A stretch of DNA of 54,088 bases from Minisyncoccota bacterium (GTDB taxonomy: Bacteria > Patescibacteriota > Minisyncoccia > Phycocordibacterales > UBA9973): positions 35,434 to 89,521 of the forward strand of contig JAGOSA010000001.1 of NCBI GenBank assembly GCA_018062505.1, in the 5' to 3' direction. The position numbers were made by a program, and so were the translations under genes. Shown one piece after another: positions 47,303 to 52,933 of the stretch. The notes beneath the pieces are model-generated. The model was not told where the DNA came from. It did no database searches and worked only from the letters and a program-made list of their open reading frames with translations. Each line of letters starts with the position of its first letter. The stretch's first letter is position 1.

Positions 47303-47374
47303 GGCCCCGTCGTTCAATGGATAGGACATGAGTTTGCGGAATTCAAGATGCAGGTTCGATTCCTGCCGGGGTCA
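47303..47374 (+). tRNA. tRNA-Arg (anticodon GCG)
   Basis: GGCCCCG TC GTTC AATGGATA GGAC A TGAGT TTGCGGA ATTCA AGAT GCAGG TTCGATT CCTGC CGGGGTC A. Anticodon positions 34-36 are G336 C337 G338. Confidence 0.85.
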
Positions 47375-47409
47375 CACGCTAGTGCGAGGTTCGGGAGACC
47401 GAGAGGGAT
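47372..47409. repeat. 38-bp direct repeat, left copy (identical to 52851-52888)
   Basis: tcacacgctagtgcgaggttcgggagaccgagagggat. It overlaps the last 3 nt of tRNA-Arg(GCG). Confidence 0.95.
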
Positions 47410-47437
47410 ATCCCTTTCTAATATCGAACTTTTAAAA

Positions 47438-47467
47438 CAAAAGTCGCCAATTGGCGACTTTTGTTTT
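47438..47467. terminator. bidirectional terminator just inside the island
   Basis: Perfect palindrome CAAAAGTCGCCAA/TTGGCGACTTTTG followed by TTTT. Confidence 0.75.
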
Positions 47468-47488
47468 CGGATTCGGCCTTTTCATTTT

Positions 47489-48046
47489 TTATTGCGACTC
47501 ACTACTCACACCATTCCTCGCGACATTTTCAGCATCTAGAATTATCCCGTTAATGACATTTATATATTCCTTTTCTGGCGAGGTTATTTGGTCGGTTAAT
47601 TTACCCTCCTTGTACCATGTACAAATGCTACTGTTAACGACATAGAATTCATCTTTAGTCATAGTTGGAACTGAAGCAGGATCCTCTATCGGCGCGATTT
47701 TATAACTAGTAAGCTCATCAATGACTTTTACCACTTTTTTGTCCTTAAGAACAACTGAGACTGTTCTGAATCCTGTTTCCCCGGAATGCTTATCTTCAAT
47801 CAAAACCACATCATTATTCTTATCAGTAAAAATTCTTCTATATGAGCCATCTGTAGCTTGTCTGTCTAGTTCATTTTCTTGAACATTATAATTACCACTT
47901 TCAGCAAGAACCTTACTTACATACGAATCAATTTCTGACTGATTCGAGCTACAATTAATGGCAATATTTTTATCGTGTTTATTATATGCAATGATGCCAA
48001 CTGCAAATAAAACTATAATTATGAGAATTGATATATATTTTTTCAT
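47489..48046 (-). CDS. hypothetical N-terminally anchored/secreted protein
   Basis: MKKYISILIIIVLFAVGIIAYNK anchor. It is AT-rich with no motif. Confidence 0.45.
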   Translation of the reverse strand: MKKYISILIIIVLFAVGIIAYNKHDKNIAINCSSNQSEIDSYVSKVLAESGNYNVQENELDRQATDGSYRRIFTDKNNDVVLIEDKHSGETGFRTVSVVLKDKKVVKVIDELTSYKIAPIEDPASVPTMTKDEFYVVNSSICTWYKEGKLTDQITSPEKEYINVINGIILDAENVARNGVSSESQ

Positions 48047-48054
48047 TAATTCAA

Positions 48055-48468
48055 TTAGTCCTCGTAAACAGATACAGTTGTGACTATTTCTCCATCAAAA
48101 GTCACTTTAAGCCATTTATTATCTGCCGCCGTAAAATCTATCCAGTATAGCCACACGGAAGCATTGTATGTATTATCATCGATACCAATTAGATCTTTAA
48201 CTTGTTCTTTATTCTTGCCAATTAGATTGGCTGATCTTATGAGCGAATATGCCATCTTCTTTCGGTTAGATAATTCCCGGTATGCAGAGTTGCCATCTAC
48301 ATTGGAACTTTGGAATCTTTCATATGATTTAACCCATTCAATTGAGTCAAATTTTTTAGGAAAAATATAATTTCTTATATTTGGAGTAGAAAAGCATATG
48401 GCGACGATGGCTAGTAAAGTGATTAATACAATTATTATTATTATTATTATTTTGGTTCTTTTAGTCAT
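48055..48468 (-). CDS. hypothetical N-terminally anchored protein
   Basis: MTKRTKIIIIIIIVLITLLAIVAICF anchor with no motif. Confidence 0.45.
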   Translation of the reverse strand: MTKRTKIIIIIIIVLITLLAIVAICFSTPNIRNYIFPKKFDSIEWVKSYERFQSSNVDGNSAYRELSNRKKMAYSLIRSANLIGKNKEQVKDLIGIDDNTYNASVWLYWIDFTAADNKWLKVTFDGEIVTTVSVYED

Positions 48469-48469
48469 T

Positions 48470-48607
48470 TTATTTCTTTATTTGGGAATTTTTTAAGATG
48501 AACTGATCTTCCCGAACTTCCAATGTAATAAACGGCCAAGTTATTTGCCAAGAGCCAATCCATGCCCCACCACGAAATTTATTATTTCGATTTATATCAT
48601 TAAACAT
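48470..48607 (-). pseudogene. truncated 45-codon copy of the N-terminus of the 48898-49227 gene
   Basis: Translation is MFNDINRNNKFRGGAWIGSWQITWPFITLEVREDQFILKNSQIKK*. It lies in the 124-bp repeat, and its ATG overlaps the upstream stop by 1 nt. Confidence 0.6.
48484..48607. repeat. 124-bp direct repeat copy 1 (119/124 identical to 49104-49227)
   Basis: Base-by-base comparison of the two copies gives 5 mismatches. Confidence 0.95.
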
Positions 48608-48867
48608 TAGAGAATAATAATCAATAACTGTGTTATCGCACCAAGCATTATTATCAAAGCAACTATTATTATCAGTGAATAGGAACTTTTATCCGATCTG
48701 GCTTCCATACTTTCTAATACTTTTTGATTTAGAAAATCTTTACGTTTAGATAAATAGCTCTTTTGAAGTGAGTACATTTTCTTTCTGTAGATGATTGCAA
48801 TGATGCTACCAATTATCAACATAATTAAAACTACTATTTGATATATATCTCCTATTTTATCTTGCAT
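48607..48867 (-). CDS. hypothetical 2-TM small membrane protein
   Basis: The TM helices are IYQIVVLIMLIIGSIIAIIY and YSLIIIVALIIMLGAITQLLIII. Confidence 0.45.
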   Translation of the reverse strand: MQDKIGDIYQIVVLIMLIIGSIIAIIYRKKMYSLQKSYLSKRKDFLNQKVLESMEARSDKSSYSLIIIVALIIMLGAITQLLIIIL

Positions 48868-48897
48868 TATTTTTTAGATCTTCTTATTCATTTTTTA

Positions 48898-49227
48898 CTA
48901 AACTCTTGCACCATACCAACCAAATTTTTTAAGAGAATCAATCAAACTATCAAATCGAAAGCTCCAGTACCAAAAATAATATTTAGTTTCCTTAGATTTA
49001 TCACGGAGTACAATGTTGATGCCGTGACCGATTATTGGTAGATATTTTTTTACCTCGATTTTTTCGACTGAGTCACGGGTAAAATAGTATTCTTTCTTGA
49101 ATAGGGAATTTTTTAAGATGAGCTGATCTTCCCGAACTTCCAATGTAATAAACGGCCAAGTTATTTGCCAAGAGCCAATCCATGCCCCGCCACGAAATTT
49201 ATTATTTTGATTTATATTATTAGACAT
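48898..49227 (-). CDS. hypothetical protein (109 aa), full-length copy of the duplicated N-terminus
   Basis: MSNNINQNNKFRGGAWIGSWQITWPFITLEVREDQLILKNSLFKKEYYF... The start lies 2 nt after the stop of the upstream orphan fragment. Confidence 0.5.
   Translation of the reverse strand: MSNNINQNNKFRGGAWIGSWQITWPFITLEVREDQLILKNSLFKKEYYFTRDSVEKIEVKKYLPIIGHGINIVLRDKSKETKYYFWYWSFRFDSLIDSLKKFGWYGARV
49104..49227. repeat. 124-bp direct repeat copy 2
   Basis: See 48484-48607. Confidence 0.95.
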
Positions 49228-49232
49228 TATTA

Positions 49233-49481
49233 TTTTCTTATATTATTGATAATATTTTTAATACCCCGACCAACAGAAGATCCTGCAGAACTTACACTAC
49301 TTTTAAAGTTATTAATCACATTAGAAATATTACCTTGAAAAATTGGATATGTTTTACTTACACCCCCACTGAATGTAATAGGAATAGCAATAGGGCTTAG
49401 TCTTGCCCCTACTCCGATACCGACATCTGTTCCAGTGTATCCTCCATTGGAAAAGTTAGTCGTAACATCTCCACCGAGCTT
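49233..49481 (-). pseudogene. orphan 3' fragment of a Gly/Ser-rich protein gene (no start codon)
   Basis: An 83-codon open frame between an in-frame TAG (49482-49484) and TAA (49230-49232). It reads KLGGDVTTNFSNGGYTGTDVGIGVGARLSPIAIPITFSGGVSKTYPIFQGNISNVINNFKSSVSSAGSSVGRGIKNIINNIRK. No ATG is present, and the only alternative start is near the end. Confidence 0.5.
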
Positions 49482-49536
49482 CTATTTGAAGCGTAGCAAA
49501 AGGAATATCAACAATCAATGAGTTGTGGATATTCTT

Positions 49537-49557
49537 TTACTGCACGGTGTGCAGTAA
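49537..49557. promoter_or_regulatory. perfect inverted repeat TTACTGCAC-GGT-GTGCAGTAA, candidate LexA-type operator
   Basis: The 9-bp arms are perfectly complementary. The core CTG-N9-CAG resembles the CTG-N10-CAG SOS box. It lies 60-80 nt upstream of the lexA-like ATG. Confidence 0.5.
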
Positions 49558-49577
49558 CCTCTATATTCATTATCCAC

Positions 49578-49606
49578 TTGCATTTTTGTTTACCTGTCTG
49601 TATACT
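49578..49606 (+). promoter_or_regulatory. sigma70-like promoter of the lexA-like/cap5/CD-NTase operon
   Basis: TTGCAT (49578-49583), a 17-nt spacer, then TATACT (49601-49606). The ATG is at 49617, which implies a very short leader. Confidence 0.45.
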
Positions 49607-49616
49607 ACTGTTTACC

Positions 49617-50240
49617 ATGCATACCGCACTAAGTGAGAAGGATAAAAAGGCCTTCACATTCATCCGGAACCGCATTATTCACTTTGGGAAGAGTCCTTCC
49701 CTTCGTGAGATAAACACGGTAACCGAAGATAAGTCACCCCGCTCGGCAAGTTTGGTAATCAATCGGCTTATTCATGCTGGTTTGATACGAAAGATCGAAG
49801 ACAAAATTCTGCTTACATCAAATATTGACCAATTACAGGACTCAGTGACGACAGTAAAAGTTCCACTCGTCGGATCAGTCCCCTGCGGATCACCCATGCT
49901 TGCAGAAGAGAACATTACAGCCTATATATCTGTTTCAACAGCACTTGCCAAACCAGGATCAAAATATTTCCTTCTTCGTGCCGTGGGAGATTCCATGAAT
50001 CTCGCCGACATCAATGATGGTGATATTCTCCTCGTTCGGCAACAAAGCATGGCTGAAAACAACCAACGAGTGGTTGCTCTCATTGACGACGAAGCGACCG
50101 TAAAGATTCTCGAAAGAAAAAATGAGTACGTTATTCTTCGACCAAAATCATCCAACAAAGAACACAAGCCAATTGTCTTAACAGATAATTGCAAGATCCT
50201 AGGCGTAGTTATTTCAGTACTACCATCGGATCTTCACTAG
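49617..50240 (+). CDS. lexA: LexA-type repressor (winged HTH + S24 self-cleaving peptidase domain)
   Basis: The N-terminal LSEKDKKAFTFIRNRIIHFGKSPSLREIN...SASLVINRLIHAGLIRK forms the HTH. The linker is VPLVGSVPCGSPMLAEENI (C-G where LexA has A-G). The Ser motif is AVGDSM and the Lys motif EATVKIL. Start taken at MHTALSE; the track ORF start at 49518 would cover the promoter. Confidence 0.8.
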   Translation: MHTALSEKDKKAFTFIRNRIIHFGKSPSLREINTVTEDKSPRSASLVINRLIHAGLIRKIEDKILLTSNIDQLQDSVTTVKVPLVGSVPCGSPMLAEENITAYISVSTALAKPGSKYFLLRAVGDSMNLADINDGDILLVRQQSMAENNQRVVALIDDEATVKILERKNEYVILRPKSSNKEHKPIVLTDNCKILGVVISVLPSDLH

Positions 50241-50243
50241 TTC

Positions 50244-51405
50244 ATGCACACAACAGAAAATTCCGGAAAATCCGTCAAACGTATTTCAAGAGATAAAATT
50301 AAATCACCTACTAAGGATGTTTTAATTGTCCGCTCTGGTGGGAGATGTCAGTTTAATGGATGCAATCGATATCTTTTTAAACATTCTCTTACTCAAGACG
50401 AAGGTAATTACGCACAAGTTGCCCACATTGTCGCATACAGCAAACAAGGTCCTCGAGCGAGCCAATTGCTTACTAAAGAATACATTAATGACCCAGAAAA
50501 CTTAATGCTTCTTTGCCATGAGTGCCACCACCTTGTGGACACAAAACCTGAATCGTATACTGTCGAACTACTTAAAAAGTATAAACACGAGCACGAGGAG
50601 AGGGTATTTCAGCAAACTGAAATAAAATCAGAATTAAAAACCTCAATCCTTCAACTGAAATCAATCATAGGGAGCCAGGCGGTGGATATCCCTGCAGCTG
50701 ATGTTCGAATGGCAATAGCGCCTCGTTTCCCTGTTGATGCGAAAGGATGTGTTATGGATCTTACTCAATTTTCCCAAGAAGATCCGGCATTTTATAGTGT
50801 CGCTAAAGACTACATAAACAAACAAGTGGATGCTTTCCTTTCGGCAGGAGTAGAGTCATTGCCCATTAAGCACATTTCCCTATTTGCTCTCGCTCCAATA
50901 CCAATTCTCGTATTCCTTGGATCGAAGCTCGGAAACAAGATTGCGCTGAATGCTTATCAAAGGCACAGAGACACGGAAGATTGGAAATGGAAAGACAATG
51001 AAGACCCTCTTGTTTTTACTTACGAGAAAATTAAAAACGGCAACGATCCACACCAAGTTTCTCTTGTCGTTTCGGTGAGCGGAAATATTATGTCCGATAA
51101 TCCGCCGAATTTTACCGACGACACGAGCGTATACCTGCTGACACCAGAAGGCGGCAAAGCCGGCTATTCTATTCTGAAAAATGCCGAAAGTGTACACAAT
51201 TTTCAAAAAAACATACCGAGAGCTTTTGAGTTTAATCCTTAAAGAACATTCAGGACTTTCGGAAATCAATCTTTTTGCAGCATGCCCCGCCCCTATCGCC
51301 ATTCACTGCGGCAGAGAGATTATGCCCAAAATTGATCCTAGGGTAATAGTTCACGATTATAACAGGACTGCCGGAGGCTGGCTGGAAGTATTAAAAATTA
51401 ACTAG
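50244..51405 (+). CDS. cap5: Cap5-like CBASS effector: N-terminal HNH endonuclease + SAVED domain, interrupted by a 1-nt frameshift (frame 0 ends 51242; frame +1 continues 51178-51405)
   Basis: The HNH domain reads CQFNGCNRYL...HIVAYSKQGPR...NLMLLCHECHHLVD. The two SAVED halves are ISLFALAPIPILVFLGSKL...YQRH and, in the +1 frame, INLFAACPAPIAIHCGREI...VHDYNR. An A7 run lies at 51205-51211. Confidence 0.75.
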
Positions 51406-51414
51406 TTGAAAATT

Positions 51415-52716
51415 ATGAACAACATAAACAATTACCTTCAAGAGTTGCTCGTCTCTCAAAACCTAACGGAAGAACAAGAAGAAACTCTGCAGTCACACAA
51501 AGAAGAAGTTACCAGCTTCCTGCGTGCTAAATTTGGAGACAGCCCAAAGATAAAATATGCTGGTTCAAAGGAAAAAGGTACAATGATTCGCGACAACTAC
51601 GATCTAGATATTGTTTGTTACTTCCCTAGCACCGACGAACGCACATTGAAAGAAATCCGTGAAGACGTTTCAGATCACCTTGGTGAAAAATATATGATGG
51701 AAGACAAAGCTTCCGCTGAACGTATCTTAGATCTGAAAGATTCCAATAGCCCTCGTGGATACCACATTGATGTTGTACCAGGAAGATTCATCGAGGGCAC
51801 AAATGATGTTTTCCTTCACCTTGCCGAAGGCGACAAAGAACGACTCCAAACAAATCTTAAAACTCACATTAGCCACATCGCCAATAGCGGATGTGTTCCA
51901 GTTATCCGTCTCGCAAAAATTTGGGCACATCGAAACAAGATAGAGATTAAAACATTTATACTCGAACTGTTTATCGTTGAAATTCTAAATGACAGCAAAA
52001 CAAAAGATGATCTTGAAAAATCGTTCCTAATAGTGATCGAAGCAATGAAAGATCGTTTTAATTCGATCCAAATTATTGATCCAGCCAACACAAACAATAT
52101 TGTTTCTAAACTAATGGAGCCTACAGCAAAAACTGCAGTTGTATATGCCGCAGAAGGTGCTTATGAACAAATTGAAGATTCAAATAATCTATCAGATTGG
52201 AAAAGTATTTTTTGCGATACTTCTAAAGAAAATATTACTCCAGTCGTAATAGAGAATTCACGCGACTTAGCGCTATCAGACTTTTCTCATCGACAGGATT
52301 TGTCAGATGAAGGTATTGTCGACTACGGCACATACCCATGCTCTGTAGAAATTAAAGCTGAAATTTGGTTCCGTGGCCCGCACGATAAAAAAATAAATCG
52401 ACGCTCTCATGGTTTTGTAAATTCTAAGACACTTATTCCAACTTGGCATGAAATTGATTACACTGCGACAACCGATGCCCCGATGCCATACGATATTTAC
52501 TGGCAAGTAGTTAATACTGGCATGCATGCAAGTCAAAAGAATGGTCTTCGTGGAGAAATTTTCCCCGGCGAAAGAGTCAGAACAGAACACACATTATTTC
52601 ATGGAGTTCACTGGATTGAGTGCTTTATAGTCTCAAAAGAAGGGGTTTGCATAGCGCGCAGCGGTCCCTTTTATGTTGCGTTTCGTAACCCAAACTTTCT
52701 TCAGCTACCTTCTTAG
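51415..52716 (+). CDS. SMODS/CD-NTase-family nucleotidyltransferase with C-terminal AGS-C-like beta-rich domain
   Basis: The Pol-beta NTase motifs are YAGSKEKGTMIRDNYDLDIV and HIDVVPG. The OAS/CD-NTase-type helix is RLAKIWAHRNKIEIKTFILELFIVEIL. A C-terminal ~145 aa (...YDIYWQVVNTGMHASQKNGLRGEIF...HGVHWIECFIV...) follows. TTG at 51406 is an alternative start directly after the cap5 stop. Confidence 0.75.
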   Translation: MNNINNYLQELLVSQNLTEEQEETLQSHKEEVTSFLRAKFGDSPKIKYAGSKEKGTMIRDNYDLDIVCYFPSTDERTLKEIREDVSDHLGEKYMMEDKASAERILDLKDSNSPRGYHIDVVPGRFIEGTNDVFLHLAEGDKERLQTNLKTHISHIANSGCVPVIRLAKIWAHRNKIEIKTFILELFIVEILNDSKTKDDLEKSFLIVIEAMKDRFNSIQIIDPANTNNIVSKLMEPTAKTAVVYAAEGAYEQIEDSNNLSDWKSIFCDTSKENITPVVIENSRDLALSDFSHRQDLSDEGIVDYGTYPCSVEIKAEIWFRGPHDKKINRRSHGFVNSKTLIPTWHEIDYTATTDAPMPYDIYWQVVNTGMHASQKNGLRGEIFPGERVRTEHTLFHGVHWIECFIVSKEGVCIARSGPFYVAFRNPNFLQLPS

Positions 52717-52850
52717 TTAATTCAAACTGTGTCTCATTTGTCTCATTTCTAAAAACTAACCCTTGACCGAGAGGGTTCACCGCCTCGCCGCCAAAAGTGC
52801 TAGAATACCCTTATACGGTCTCACCTCTCTTGGTTCTAGACCGACGAGCT

Positions 52851-52888
52851 TCACACGCTAGTGCGAGGTTCGGGAGACCGAGAGGGAT
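52851..52888. repeat. 38-bp direct repeat, right copy
   Basis: All 38 positions are identical to 47372-47409. The flanking bases differ on both sides. Confidence 0.95.
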
Positions 52889-52933
52889 CTCGTTAGTCTA
52901 AATAAAAAAATATTGATATAGTCATTACTATAT

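What the first reader, a model, noticed from the sequence alone, without database searches (positions are those of the whole stretch)
49537..52716. LexA-type repressor fused into an operon with a Cap5 (HNH-SAVED) nuclease and a SMODS/CD-NTase: candidate DNA-damage-gated CBASS
**Seen in sequence**
- Three same-strand genes are packed with 3-nt and 0-9-nt gaps (TAG-ttc-ATG at 50238-50246; TAG then TTG/ATG at 51403-51417).
- Gene 1 has a LexA-like winged HTH plus an S24 domain. The Ser (GDSM) and Lys (TVKIL) dyad are present, with a C-G at the usual A-G cleavage site.
- Gene 2 has an HNH motif set followed by two SAVED-like repeats.
- Gene 3 has the G-S...D-x-D / h-D-h Pol-beta NTase motifs of SMODS/CD-NTases plus an extra C-terminal domain.

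**Established knowledge**
- CD-NTase plus Cap5 is a minimal CBASS anti-phage module.
- Some CBASS loci are controlled by the two-protein CapH/CapP damage-responsive switch.
- LexA-family proteins self-cleave on RecA filaments.

**Inference**
- A one-protein LexA-like switch appears to replace CapH/CapP here. That would tie expression of a suicide nuclease system to DNA damage or phage replication.
- The effector-first gene order, and its occurrence in a streamlined CPR-like genome, are also unusual.
Basis: partly seen in the sequence, partly recalled or inferred. Interest (0 to 1): 0.8.

Follow-up and report, generated by a model that had tools for sequence, protein, structure and literature searches.

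The report
LexA-led CBASS defence island, effector frameshifted
A 5.5-kb mobile island in a Paceibacteria genome carries a self-cleaving LexA-type repressor at the head of a CBASS anti-phage operon, one case of a wider and apparently undescribed habit of this LexA clade of leading swappable defence gene sets; here the nuclease gene is broken by a one-base frameshift.

Summary
The three genes are real: LexA-type repressor (49617-50240), HNH-SAVED Cap5 (50244-51405) and CD-NTase fused to AGS_C (51415-52716), with 3- and 9-nt gaps.

1. Cap5 is split by a +1 frameshift in an A7 run (51205-51211). The same allele occurs in five assemblies.
2. The genes lie in a 5,479-bp low-GC island bounded by a perfect 37-bp direct repeat beside tRNA-Arg. 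Three contigs from sister strains show the empty site, so this LexA is accessory, not housekeeping.
3. The pattern is general. The LexA belongs to a clade (monophyletic in 50/50 NJ bootstraps) whose members are followed, same strand, by variable defence cargo: CBASS in 13 of 34, plus Thoeris-like TIR, Shedu, caspase, PARIS and others. Most sit beside a serine recombinase/TerL/TerS/ParB-methylase core.

The closest CD-NTase relative (68% identity) sits in the same element family but with a divergent HTH + M78 peptidase pair (CapH/CapP type) instead of LexA. That supports the idea that LexA replaces CapH/CapP.

The 21-bp palindrome is not conserved; KTWTAC repeats over the -10 and start codon are the better operator candidate. 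Effector-first order is normal for this Cap5 family. Damage-gated derepression is inferred, not shown.

The parts
47303..47375 (+). tRNA-Arg (anticodon GCG). Its 3' end abuts the left copy of the island's direct repeat.
   Evidence: Rfam 58.8 bits; ARAGORN.
47373..47409 (.). Left copy of the perfect 37-bp direct repeat (attL-like).
   Evidence: two exact copies, none in 100 shuffles.
47410..52888 (.). Accessory island of 5,479 bp, GC 37.8% against 44.7% for the rest of the window. It is absent from sister strains. It holds four small ORFs of unknown function plus the LexA-Cap5-CD-NTase operon, and no integrase.
   Evidence: Empty-site contigs L193, L194 and L188 join window ..47412 directly to 52851.. 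with a single repeat copy. GC values.
47489..49227 (-). Four small minus-strand ORFs of unknown function: 185 aa (47489-48046), 137 aa (48055-48468), 86 aa (48607-48867) and 109 aa (48898-49227). Several have hydrophobic N-termini. A 140-nt internal duplication lies at 48470-48609 and 49090-49229.
   Evidence: No significant Pfam or PHROG match. No homologues in other fetched loci. Duplication.
49537..49557 (.). Perfect 9-3-9 palindrome TTACTGCAC-GGT-GTGCAGTAA, 21 nt upstream of the -35 hexamer. Role unexplained; not conserved in related loci.
49578..49606 (+). Predicted promoter TTGCAT-17 nt-TATACT. The -10 hexamer ends 10 nt before the ATG, so the mRNA would be leaderless or nearly so.
   Evidence: The same layout is conserved in 29 clade-A loci. 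This is a sequence reading, not shown experimentally.
49588..49615 (+). Three KTWTAC boxes 10-12 bp apart: GTTTAC 49588-93, GTATAC 49600-05, GTTTAC 49610-15. Candidate LexA operator overlapping the -10 hexamer and the transcription start.
   Evidence: Boxes sit near -17 and -7 from the ATG in 24 of 29 clade-A promoters and at one of the two in the other 5; 2.03 per locus against 0.096 background. The recognition helix KSPRSASLVI is about invariant in the clade.
49617..50240 (+). LexA-type repressor, 207 aa: winged HTH plus S24 domain, Cys90-Gly91 cleavage site, Ser126 and Lys163.
50244..51242 (+). Cap5 (HNH-SAVED effector), 5' reading frame. As written it encodes a 332-aa product that ends at TAA 51240-51242.
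51205..51211 (+). A7 run, the site of the +1 frameshift that splits Cap5. Six A's would restore the frame.
   Evidence: Identical A7 in L001, L002, L003 and L185.
51202..51405 (+). Cap5 3' part in the +1 frame: the C-terminal 66 residues or so of the SAVED domain, with all invariant positions kept, ending at TAG 51403-51405.
51415..52716 (+). CD-NTase, 433 aa. Complete cyclase core (residues 1-266), a low-confidence linker (271-290), and a C-terminal beta-rich AGS_C domain (about 300-425). An alternative TTG start lies at 51406.
52852..52888 (.). Right copy of the 37-bp direct repeat (attR-like). It is preceded by 22 nt that resemble the tRNA 3' end; the 60-nt stretch is 83% identical to the left copy.

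Best explanation
This is a horizontally acquired defence cassette.

**Shown**
- It is a 5.5-kb island inserted next to tRNA-Arg.
- Its right-hand 3.1 kb is one operon: a LexA-type repressor gene, then a type I CBASS made of a Cap5 HNH-SAVED nuclease and a CD-NTase with a fused AGS_C domain.
- The LexA belongs to a distinct clade that, across Patescibacteria mobile elements, leads interchangeable defence gene sets.
- The Cap5 gene in this genome carries a one-base insertion in an A-run.

**Inferred mechanism**
- The repressor dimer binds the conserved KTWTAC repeats over its own -10 hexamer and transcription start, and holds the whole operon, itself included, at a low level.
- RecA filaments form on single-stranded DNA made by DNA damage or phage replication. 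They stimulate Ser126/Lys163 self-cleavage at Cys90-Gly91, repression is lifted, and transcription of Cap5 and the cyclase rises.
- The cyclase then makes a nucleotide signal that the SAVED domain reads, switching on the HNH nuclease.
- This is the role the two-protein CapH/CapP switch plays in related cassettes.
- Because of the frameshift, the system here is probably switched off. At best it would depend on rare slippage or reversion to A6.
For: - **Domain identities:**
- **Operon packing:** gaps of 3 and 9 nt.
- **Island and empty sites:**
- **Triad recurs:** L004, L005 and L172.
- **Clade A:** monophyletic in 50/50 bootstraps, with the C-G site, Ser and Lys conserved at about 100% and a nearly invariant recognition helix.
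- **Cargo:** recognised defence genes lie directly downstream of 27 of 34 distinct clade-A LexAs, 13 of them CBASS.
- **Control:** distant LexAs are followed by recA or a Y-family polymerase, never by defence genes.
- **Promoter and box layout:** conserved in 29 clade-A loci including the window.
- **Displacement:** the sister cassette L186 has a CapH/CapP-type pair in place of LexA.
- **Frameshift:** the same allele in five assemblies; the repaired protein aligns without a gap.
Against: - No experiment shows DNA binding, self-cleavage or induction.
- The operator is a motif inference. The only perfect palindrome lies elsewhere and is unexplained.
- In most clade-A loci the LexA faces a conserved mobility and packaging module, so its primary target could be that module rather than the cargo.
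- The Cap5 frameshift means the cassette may be inert in this organism.
- No recA or second lexA can be checked, because only 54 kb of the genome is visible.
- The tree is neighbour-joining on p-distances only.
Confidence: 0.65

Rival explanations
1. The LexA-type protein is mainly the maintenance repressor of a satellite- or prophage-like mobile element, comparable to lambda CI or SXT SetR. Its real target would be the divergent recombinase/TerL/TerS/ParB-methylase module. The defence genes would simply occupy the cargo slot behind the repressor gene and be expressed with it in the resting state, like lambda cI-rexAB, rather than being switched on by damage. In the window the mobility core has been lost and the repressor is a leftover.
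For: - In L006-L016, L086, L092 and L098 the LexA gene faces a conserved small ORF, a ParB-N6/N4 methylase (phrog_498, 2e-80), a TerS-like HTH, TerL (phrog_38, 1e-72) and a large serine recombinase, while the host flanks differ.
- The cargo varies while the LexA and this core stay constant.
- One metagenome-assembled genome carries two copies (L014, L015).
Against: - LexA stays joined to CBASS where the ParB/TerL core is absent or different: the window, and L004 and L005.
- Gaps of 0-33 nt to the cargo place both under the LexA promoter, so any autoregulation by LexA also sets cargo levels.
- The same slot is held by a CapH/CapP-type pair in L186, and that pair is shown experimentally to gate CBASS expression.
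- The two readings are not exclusive.
Confidence: 0.25
2. In this genome the cassette is a decaying relic. The Cap5 frameshift truncates the SAVED sensor, the CBASS is non-functional, and the LexA link has no present consequence.
For: - The A7 allele is the only one seen, in five assemblies.
- The exact repaired 386-aa sequence is absent from about 15 billion proteins.
- The island has no integrase, and it contains an internal 140-nt duplication.
Against: - The +1-frame tail keeps every invariant residue, and LexA and the CD-NTase are intact, so the lesion is recent or tolerated.
- A homopolymer lesion can revert, and slippage could give some full-length product.
- This rival concerns the state in one strain, not what the cassette is.
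Confidence: 0.35
3. The gene is the organism's ordinary SOS LexA, and a CBASS happened to land next to it.
For: - It passes the NCBIfam lexA equivalog model and is named LexA in NCBI.
- It is the only lexA in the 54-kb window.
Against: - The whole island, lexA included, is missing from sister strains whose flanks are 97-100% identical.
- It groups in a clade tied to mobile elements and defence cargo (50/50 bootstraps), apart from a Patescibacteria lexA that sits next to recA.
- No SOS gene in the window carries the palindrome.
Confidence: 0.03

Closest known systems
CapH/CapP-regulated CBASS (Lau et al. 2022, preprint 10.1101/2022.04.27.489752)
   Same: - A repressor encoded at the head of a CBASS operon is removed by proteolysis in response to a DNA-damage or single-stranded-DNA signal.
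- The sister cassette L186 (CD-NTase 68% identical) carries an HTH_3 + PF06114 pair at the same slot.
   Different: - One polypeptide combines DNA binding with a serine-lysine self-cleaving domain. There is no metallopeptidase.
- The signal would be read through RecA filaments rather than by direct ssDNA binding.
- The regulator is co-directional and is the first gene of the operon, not divergent.
CapW/BrxR (WYL) and CapK/CapS regulators of defence operons (PMC9122588, PMC11662680, PMC13373217)
   Same: Dedicated transcription repressors encoded beside many different defence systems that release repression on DNA damage.
   Different: The protein families and sensing chemistry are unrelated: ssDNA binding by a WYL domain, or kinase phosphorylation, against autoproteolysis.
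Cap5-containing CBASS (CdnG-Cap5, PMC8568899; PDB 7rwk, 7rwm, 8ysq, 8fm1)
   Same: - An HNH-SAVED effector next to a CD-NTase.
- The HNH residues invariant across 12 homologues (His61, Asn82, Asn86, His95) and the SAVED domain are present.
   Different: - The effector gene is frameshifted.
- The cyclase is remote from solved ones (best sequence hit CdnC, 1e-7) and carries an extra AGS_C domain.
- Relatives L004, L005 and L172 instead have a separate E2 gene.
Type I CBASS with an NTase/AGS-C cyclase (lactococcal plasmid, PMC11381338)
   Same: A CD-NTase fused to PF18134 AGS_C in a minimal two-gene CBASS.
   Different: - The effector there is SLATT, not Cap5, and no LexA is reported.
- In this cyclase family the fusion is rare: among the 120 listed relatives only four have the fused length (427-437 aa), the rest are 286-311 aa, and none of those shorter ones carries the precomputed AGS_C domain.
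Lambda cI-rexAB and SXT SetR (S24 repressors of mobile elements; from general knowledge)
   Same: A RecA-sensitive S24 repressor of a mobile element, with defence genes riding behind or beside it.
   Different: - The DNA-binding domain is the LexA winged helix rather than the lambda-type HTH.
- The element is a small TerL/TerS/ParB-methylase/serine-recombinase unit in Patescibacteria.
- The cargo slot holds many unrelated systems.
Canonical SOS LexA (E. coli; TIGR00498)
   Same: The same fold, catalytic dyad and cleavage-site position. The Cys-Gly site is the one known from UmuD (general knowledge).
   Different: - It is accessory and island-borne, in a separate clade.
- The recognition helix is SPRSASLVI against SPNAAEEHL in E. 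coli.
- No link to repair genes was seen.

Membership tests
LexA repressor family (TIGR00498; LexA_DNA_bind + Peptidase_S24) | Whole-protein match above the curated cut-off | tested here: met
   TIGR00498 at 139.9 bits against 110.95. PF00717 at 98.5 bits; PF01726 at 24.5 against 23.7.
LexA repressor family (TIGR00498; LexA_DNA_bind + Peptidase_S24) | Ser/Lys catalytic dyad and an Ala/Cys-Gly scissile bond at the aligned positions | tested here: met
   Cys90-Gly91, Ser126 and Lys163 align with E. coli A84-G85, S119 and K156. They are about 100% conserved in the clade.
LexA repressor family (TIGR00498; LexA_DNA_bind + Peptidase_S24) | RecA-stimulated self-cleavage | not testable with these tools
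   Needs biochemistry.
Canonical SOS regulator (housekeeping lexA) | Core-genome gene that controls recA, uvr and other repair genes through a shared box | tested here: not met
   - The island is absent from sister strains.
- The clade is separate from the lexA-recA locus L050.
- The palindrome occurs once in the window.
- The whole genome is not available.
[quoted passage not shown] | CD-NTase with the G[GS]...[DE]x[DE]...[DE] active site and the cyclase fold | tested here: met
   PADLOC cyclase 1.2e-66. G50-S51, D63/D65 and D119. Foldseek hits CdnC, CdnB and CdnD, best E 2e-13. Pfam SMODS is just under its cut-off.
[quoted passage not shown] | Adjacent effector with a nucleotide-sensing domain | tested here: met
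   HNH-SAVED gene 9 nt upstream of the cyclase.
[quoted passage not shown] | Intact effector reading frame | tested here: not met
   +1 frameshift at the A7 run 51205-51211, present in all five assemblies.
[quoted passage not shown] | Protection against phage; a nucleotide second messenger | not testable with these tools
   Needs expression of the repaired operon, phage challenge and LC-MS.
Cap5 | N-terminal HNH nuclease plus C-terminal SAVED, full length | tested here: inconclusive
The gene as written truncates SAVED.
CapH/CapP regulatory module | HTH repressor plus PF06114 Zn-metallopeptidase, upstream on the opposite strand | tested here: not met
   The island has no such genes, though they are present in sister cassette L186. 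The cassette may work like this module but is not a member of it.
tRNA-associated integrative island | Direct repeats flanking the insert at a tRNA 3' end, with an empty site in relatives | tested here: met
tRNA-associated integrative island | Integrase or recombinase encoded inside | tested here: not met
   None among the island's ORFs. Related elements carry a large serine recombinase.

The most novel reading that the evidence does not exclude
A dedicated LexA paralogue clade acts as a single-protein, RecA-coupled master switch for a family of small satellite-like mobile elements in Patescibacteria and neighbouring phyla. These elements carry a serine recombinase, TerL, TerS and a ParB-methylase. 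The slot directly behind the repressor gene holds interchangeable anti-phage systems: several CBASS types, Thoeris-like TIR, Shedu, caspase, PARIS and a metallo-beta-lactamase-fold candidate. In the sister clade the slot holds type II restriction-modification systems. This would be a fourth, mechanistically distinct way of tying abortive-infection immunity to DNA damage, after CapW, CapH/CapP and CapK/CapS. It may also couple immunity to element excision and packaging.
Probability: 0.45. Interest if true: 0.82.

Novelty: new variant of a known kind. Interest (0 to 1): 0.7.

Why it matters
- **Regulation of suicide defences.** How cells keep such systems silent yet ready is an active question. 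Three damage-responsive regulator families are known for CBASS and related systems: CapW/BrxR, CapH/CapP and CapK/CapS.
- **A possible fourth family.** A LexA-type self-cleaving repressor at the head of CBASS and many other defence cassettes would plug immunity directly into the RecA/SOS signal. I found no description of it.
- **A natural swap.** LexA and a CapH/CapP-type pair sit in front of closely related CBASS modules within one element family. That gives a direct pair for testing whether the two switches are equivalent.
- **Defence in very small genomes.** The work points to a compact element that carries defence genes in Patescibacteria. I found no account of CBASS in this group.
- **Annotation.** Many genes named 'LexA' in these phyla are probably regulators of mobile defence cassettes rather than the SOS repressor.

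Tried and rejected
- **Palindrome 49537-49557 as the LexA box.** No counterpart exists upstream of any related LexA, although the recognition helix is nearly invariant. One exact hit in IMG/VR is within chance expectation for 18 fixed bases. Its role stays open.
- **Programmed -1 frameshifting on A_AAA_AAC.** The heptamer is in frame, but the downstream frame is +1, not -1 (sequence reading). Slippage on only seven A's is expected to be weak.
- **Assembly error as the cause of the frameshift.** Identical A7 is seen in five assemblies from at least four samples.
- **Housekeeping lexA.** Rejected on the empty sites and the clade placement.
- **A tRNA or other RNA gene at 52750-52900.** Nothing from Rfam or ARAGORN; only 22 nt resemble the tRNA 3' end.
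- **ParB/TerS/TerL core in the window.** Absent.
- **The four small island ORFs.** No significant Pfam or PHROG match and no relatives in other loci.
- **Viral contigs.** No close LexA relatives; the two hits are 36% identical.
- **L182's 178-aa HEAGH protein upstream of a Cap5.** No Pfam or PDB match, so it cannot be called CapP.
- **AGS_C as a diverged E2.** No similarity.
- **Exact look-up of the 436-aa TTG-start cyclase.** Not on record; gene callers use the ATG at 51415.

Full report
**1. What is in the sequence**

- **Gene 1 (49617-50240, 207 aa)** is a LexA-type repressor.
  - Peptidase_S24 scores 2.5e-28 and LexA_DNA_bind is just above its cut-off. The NCBIfam lexA equivalog scores 139.9 against 110.95.
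  - Against E. coli LexA it has Cys90-Gly91 at the Ala84-Gly85 bond, Ser126 and Lys163.
  - From general knowledge, Cys-Gly is the bond that UmuD cleaves.
- **Gene 2** is a Cap5-type HNH-SAVED effector: PADLOC 4.5e-130 end to end, and PDB 8ysq 3e-51 and 7rwk 7e-48.
- **Gene 3 (51415-52716, 433 aa)** is a CD-NTase.
  - PADLOC cyclase scores 1.2e-66. G50-S51, D63-x-D65 and D119 align with CdnC.
  - It carries a C-terminal AGS_C domain (1.5e-24).
  - An AlphaFold model (pLDDT 77) shows a complete cyclase core, a low-confidence linker at 271-290 and a separate beta-rich domain.
  - Foldseek returns CdnC, CdnB, CdnD, CdnG and CdnE as top hits (best E 2e-13, target TM up to 0.74).

**2.

- Cap5 is not one ORF. 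Frame 0 ends at 51242 (332 aa) and the rest runs in the +1 frame to 51405. The switch lies in an A7 run at 51205-51211.
- With six A's the 386-aa product aligns without a gap through the junction (..NFQK|TYRELL..) with 11 homologues and keeps all invariant C-terminal residues.
- The A7 allele is identical in the window, two NCBI metagenome assemblies and two Logan assemblies.
- The lesion is therefore real and recent or tolerated. The heptamer A_AAA_AAC is a classic -1 slippery site, but the frame needed is +1, so programmed -1 shifting is excluded.

**3. The genes sit in a mobile island**

- A perfect 37-bp direct repeat (47373-47409 and 52852-52888) starts at the last bases of tRNA-Arg(GCG).
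- The 5,479 bp between the repeats has 37.8% GC against 44.7% elsewhere in the window.
- Three contigs from other samples (L193, L194, L188) join window ..47412 directly to 52851.. with one repeat copy. Their flanks are 96-98.5% (left) and 99.9-100% (right) identical. These are empty sites.
- The island, lexA included, is therefore accessory.
- It also holds four small minus-strand ORFs with no significant Pfam or PHROG match and no integrase.

**4. Is the LexA-CBASS link more than adjacency?**

- The two closest Cap5 relatives (50% identity) sit in LexA-Cap5-CD-NTase-E2 operons inside elements with a serine recombinase, TrwB/TraG and ArdC (L004, L005).
- A fourth triad, L172, came from the metagenome scan.
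- Searching with the LexA gave more than 1,800 homologues, the best at 63-70% identity, from Paceibacterota and Patescibacteria.
- I fetched 160 loci around LexA homologues from genomes and metagenomes and typed the genes directly downstream.
- The LexA tree has three parts.

*Clade A*
- It contains 34 distinct sequences at 56% identity or more to the window's protein, and is monophyletic in 50/50 bootstraps.
- Thirteen members have a CBASS cyclase downstream. These are of at least five different PADLOC cyclase models, with patatin, Cap5 or transmembrane partners.
- Fourteen have other recognised defence genes: ThsB/TIR, caspase, Shedu SduA, a metallo-beta-lactamase-fold PADLOC candidate (PDC-M48B), a PARIS AriAB fusion, HEPN/PD-Lambda-3_B, and an E1-E2-like protein.
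- Seven are unknown or lack downstream sequence.
- Gaps to the first cargo gene are mostly 0-33 nt.

*Clade B*
- Members are 41-54% identical and come from Omnitrophota, Planctomycetota and others.
- They are mostly followed by type II restriction-modification genes: methylases with MvaI/BcnI or TdeIII endonucleases, Eco57I-like enzymes, and C5 or Dam methylases.
- A few are canonical lexA-recA pairs.

*Outside both clades*
- A Patescibacteria lexA next to recA (L050, 40% identity), and a Cytophagia lexA with a Y-family polymerase.

**5. The element behind clade A**

- In L006-L016, L086, L092 and L098 the LexA gene faces, on the other strand, a small ORF, a ParB-N6/N4 methylase (phrog_498, 2e-80), a TerS-like HTH protein, a terminase large subunit (phrog_38, 1e-72) and then a large serine recombinase. 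Host flanks differ between loci.
- This looks like a compact satellite- or prophage-derived element with a cargo slot behind its repressor.
- The window lacks this core.

**6. LexA against CapH/CapP**

- The cyclase core has hundreds of relatives. The 120 listed are 49-69% identical and mostly 286-311 aa, with no AGS_C. Only four are of the fused length, 427-437 aa.
- The closest (68% identity; L186 and L187) lies in the same element family. Its ParB-methylase, TerS and TerL are 45%, 41% and 49% identical to L008's, and it has a serine recombinase. It carries a Cap5 (38% identity) and a CD-NTase::AGS_C.
- There the regulator is a divergent HTH_3 (112 aa) plus Peptidase_M78/PF06114 (166 aa, HEIGH motif) pair, and no LexA is present.
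- Lau et al. define CapH/CapP exactly this way: an HTH plus a PF06114/DUF955 peptidase, upstream on the opposite strand, cleaved in response to ssDNA and DNA damage.
- Related CBASS cargo in one element family thus carries either switch.

**7. Promoter and operator**

- All 29 clade-A promoters examined share TTGnnn-17 nt-TATACT, with the -10 hexamer ending about 10 nt before the ATG.
- KTWTAC boxes sit near -17 and -7 in 24 of the 29 and at one of the two positions in the other 5. There are 2.03 per locus against 0.096 expected.
- In the window the boxes are GTTTAC 49588, GTATAC 49600 and GTTTAC 49610.
- The recognition helix KSPRSASLVI is nearly invariant in the clade, so a shared operator is expected. 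These boxes are the best candidate; this is an inference.
- The 21-bp palindrome lies upstream of the -35 hexamer and has no counterpart elsewhere. I cannot explain it.

**8.

- Effector-first order is the rule in this Cap5 family. From general knowledge it is also the order in Vibrio cholerae capV-dncV.
- CD-NTase::AGS_C is a described type I CBASS architecture (PMC11381338).

**9. Literature**

- Full-text searches for CBASS with LexA or S24, Patescibacteria with defence systems and LexA, and related terms found no description of LexA-type regulators of CBASS or other defence cassettes.
- Known regulators are CapW/BrxR, CapH/CapP and CapK/CapS.
- The library is incomplete, so prior description cannot be excluded.

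**10. Verdict**

- It needs three amendments: the mobile island, the effector frameshift, and a different likely operator.
- The mechanism (autorepression, then RecA-triggered self-cleavage, then derepression) is inferred from family knowledge and conservation of the catalytic and cleavage residues. It has not been shown.

Noticed in passing
L098 20441-20621 and L100 13114-13292 (gene runs off the locus): A 524-aa gene whose product has LexA_DNA_bind + Peptidase_S24 + C5 DNA_methylase hits. This looks like a LexA-methyltransferase fusion at the far end of a clade-A cargo region.
   Followed up: no
L006-L016, L086, L092, L098, L186 (e.g. L092 4296-10618): A compact conserved element in Patescibacteria: large serine recombinase, terminase large subunit, TerS-like HTH, ParB-N6/N4 methylase, a small ORF, then LexA (or HTH+M78) plus defence cargo. 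There are no capsid or replication genes within the flanks seen. It may be a new kind of phage satellite.
   Followed up: partly
L019-L028, L139-L168 (e.g. L022 395-3652; L026 6001-8678): In Omnitrophota, Planctomycetota and related metagenome-assembled genomes, a sister LexA clade (41-54% identity) is followed by type II restriction-modification genes: methylases with MvaI/BcnI or TdeIII endonucleases. This suggests a controller-protein-like role for LexA-type repressors.
   Followed up: partly
L016 6613-6825, L127 7637-7924, L101 5888-6130, and many other loci: A 65-95-aa gene often sits between LexA and the cargo. It is DUF3892 in some loci and PADLOC candidate PDC-S16 (5.9e-21) in others. 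It is absent from the window.
   Followed up: partly
window 49537-49557: A perfect 9-3-9 palindrome whose outer arms TACTG...CAGTA match the E. coli SOS-box arms but with 9 rather than 10 bases between them. It is unique to this island and its function is unexplained.
   Followed up: partly
window 48470-48609 and 49090-49229: A 140-nt direct duplication (94% identity) inside the island. It copies the 5' end of the 109-aa ORF and its upstream region.
   Followed up: no
window 47434-47467: A perfect 17-bp inverted repeat with no spacer (AAAACAAAAGTCGCCAA/TTGGCGACTTTTGTTTT) just inside the island's left end. It looks like a two-way terminator.
   Followed up: no
window 47489-49227 (minus strand): Four small ORFs (185, 137, 86 and 109 aa), several with hydrophobic N-termini, in the lowest-GC part of the island (about 30-33%). 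No significant Pfam or PHROG match was found and no relatives in other loci.
   Followed up: partly
L182 4420-4956: A 178-aa protein with an HEAGH motif lies 44 nt upstream of a LexA-less Cap5-CD-NTase-E2 operon. It could be a CapP-like peptidase, but it has no Pfam or PDB match.
   Followed up: partly
L029 and L031 (one genome), L138: LexA followed by a small ORF and then a DUF6791-ThiF (E1-like) protein. It occurs twice in one genome.
   Followed up: no
L189, L191, L192, L195 against L002: Several short-read assemblies break exactly inside the 37-bp repeat. That is expected for a repeat longer than the assembler's k-mer, and it may also reflect mixed populations with and without the island.
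   Followed up: partly
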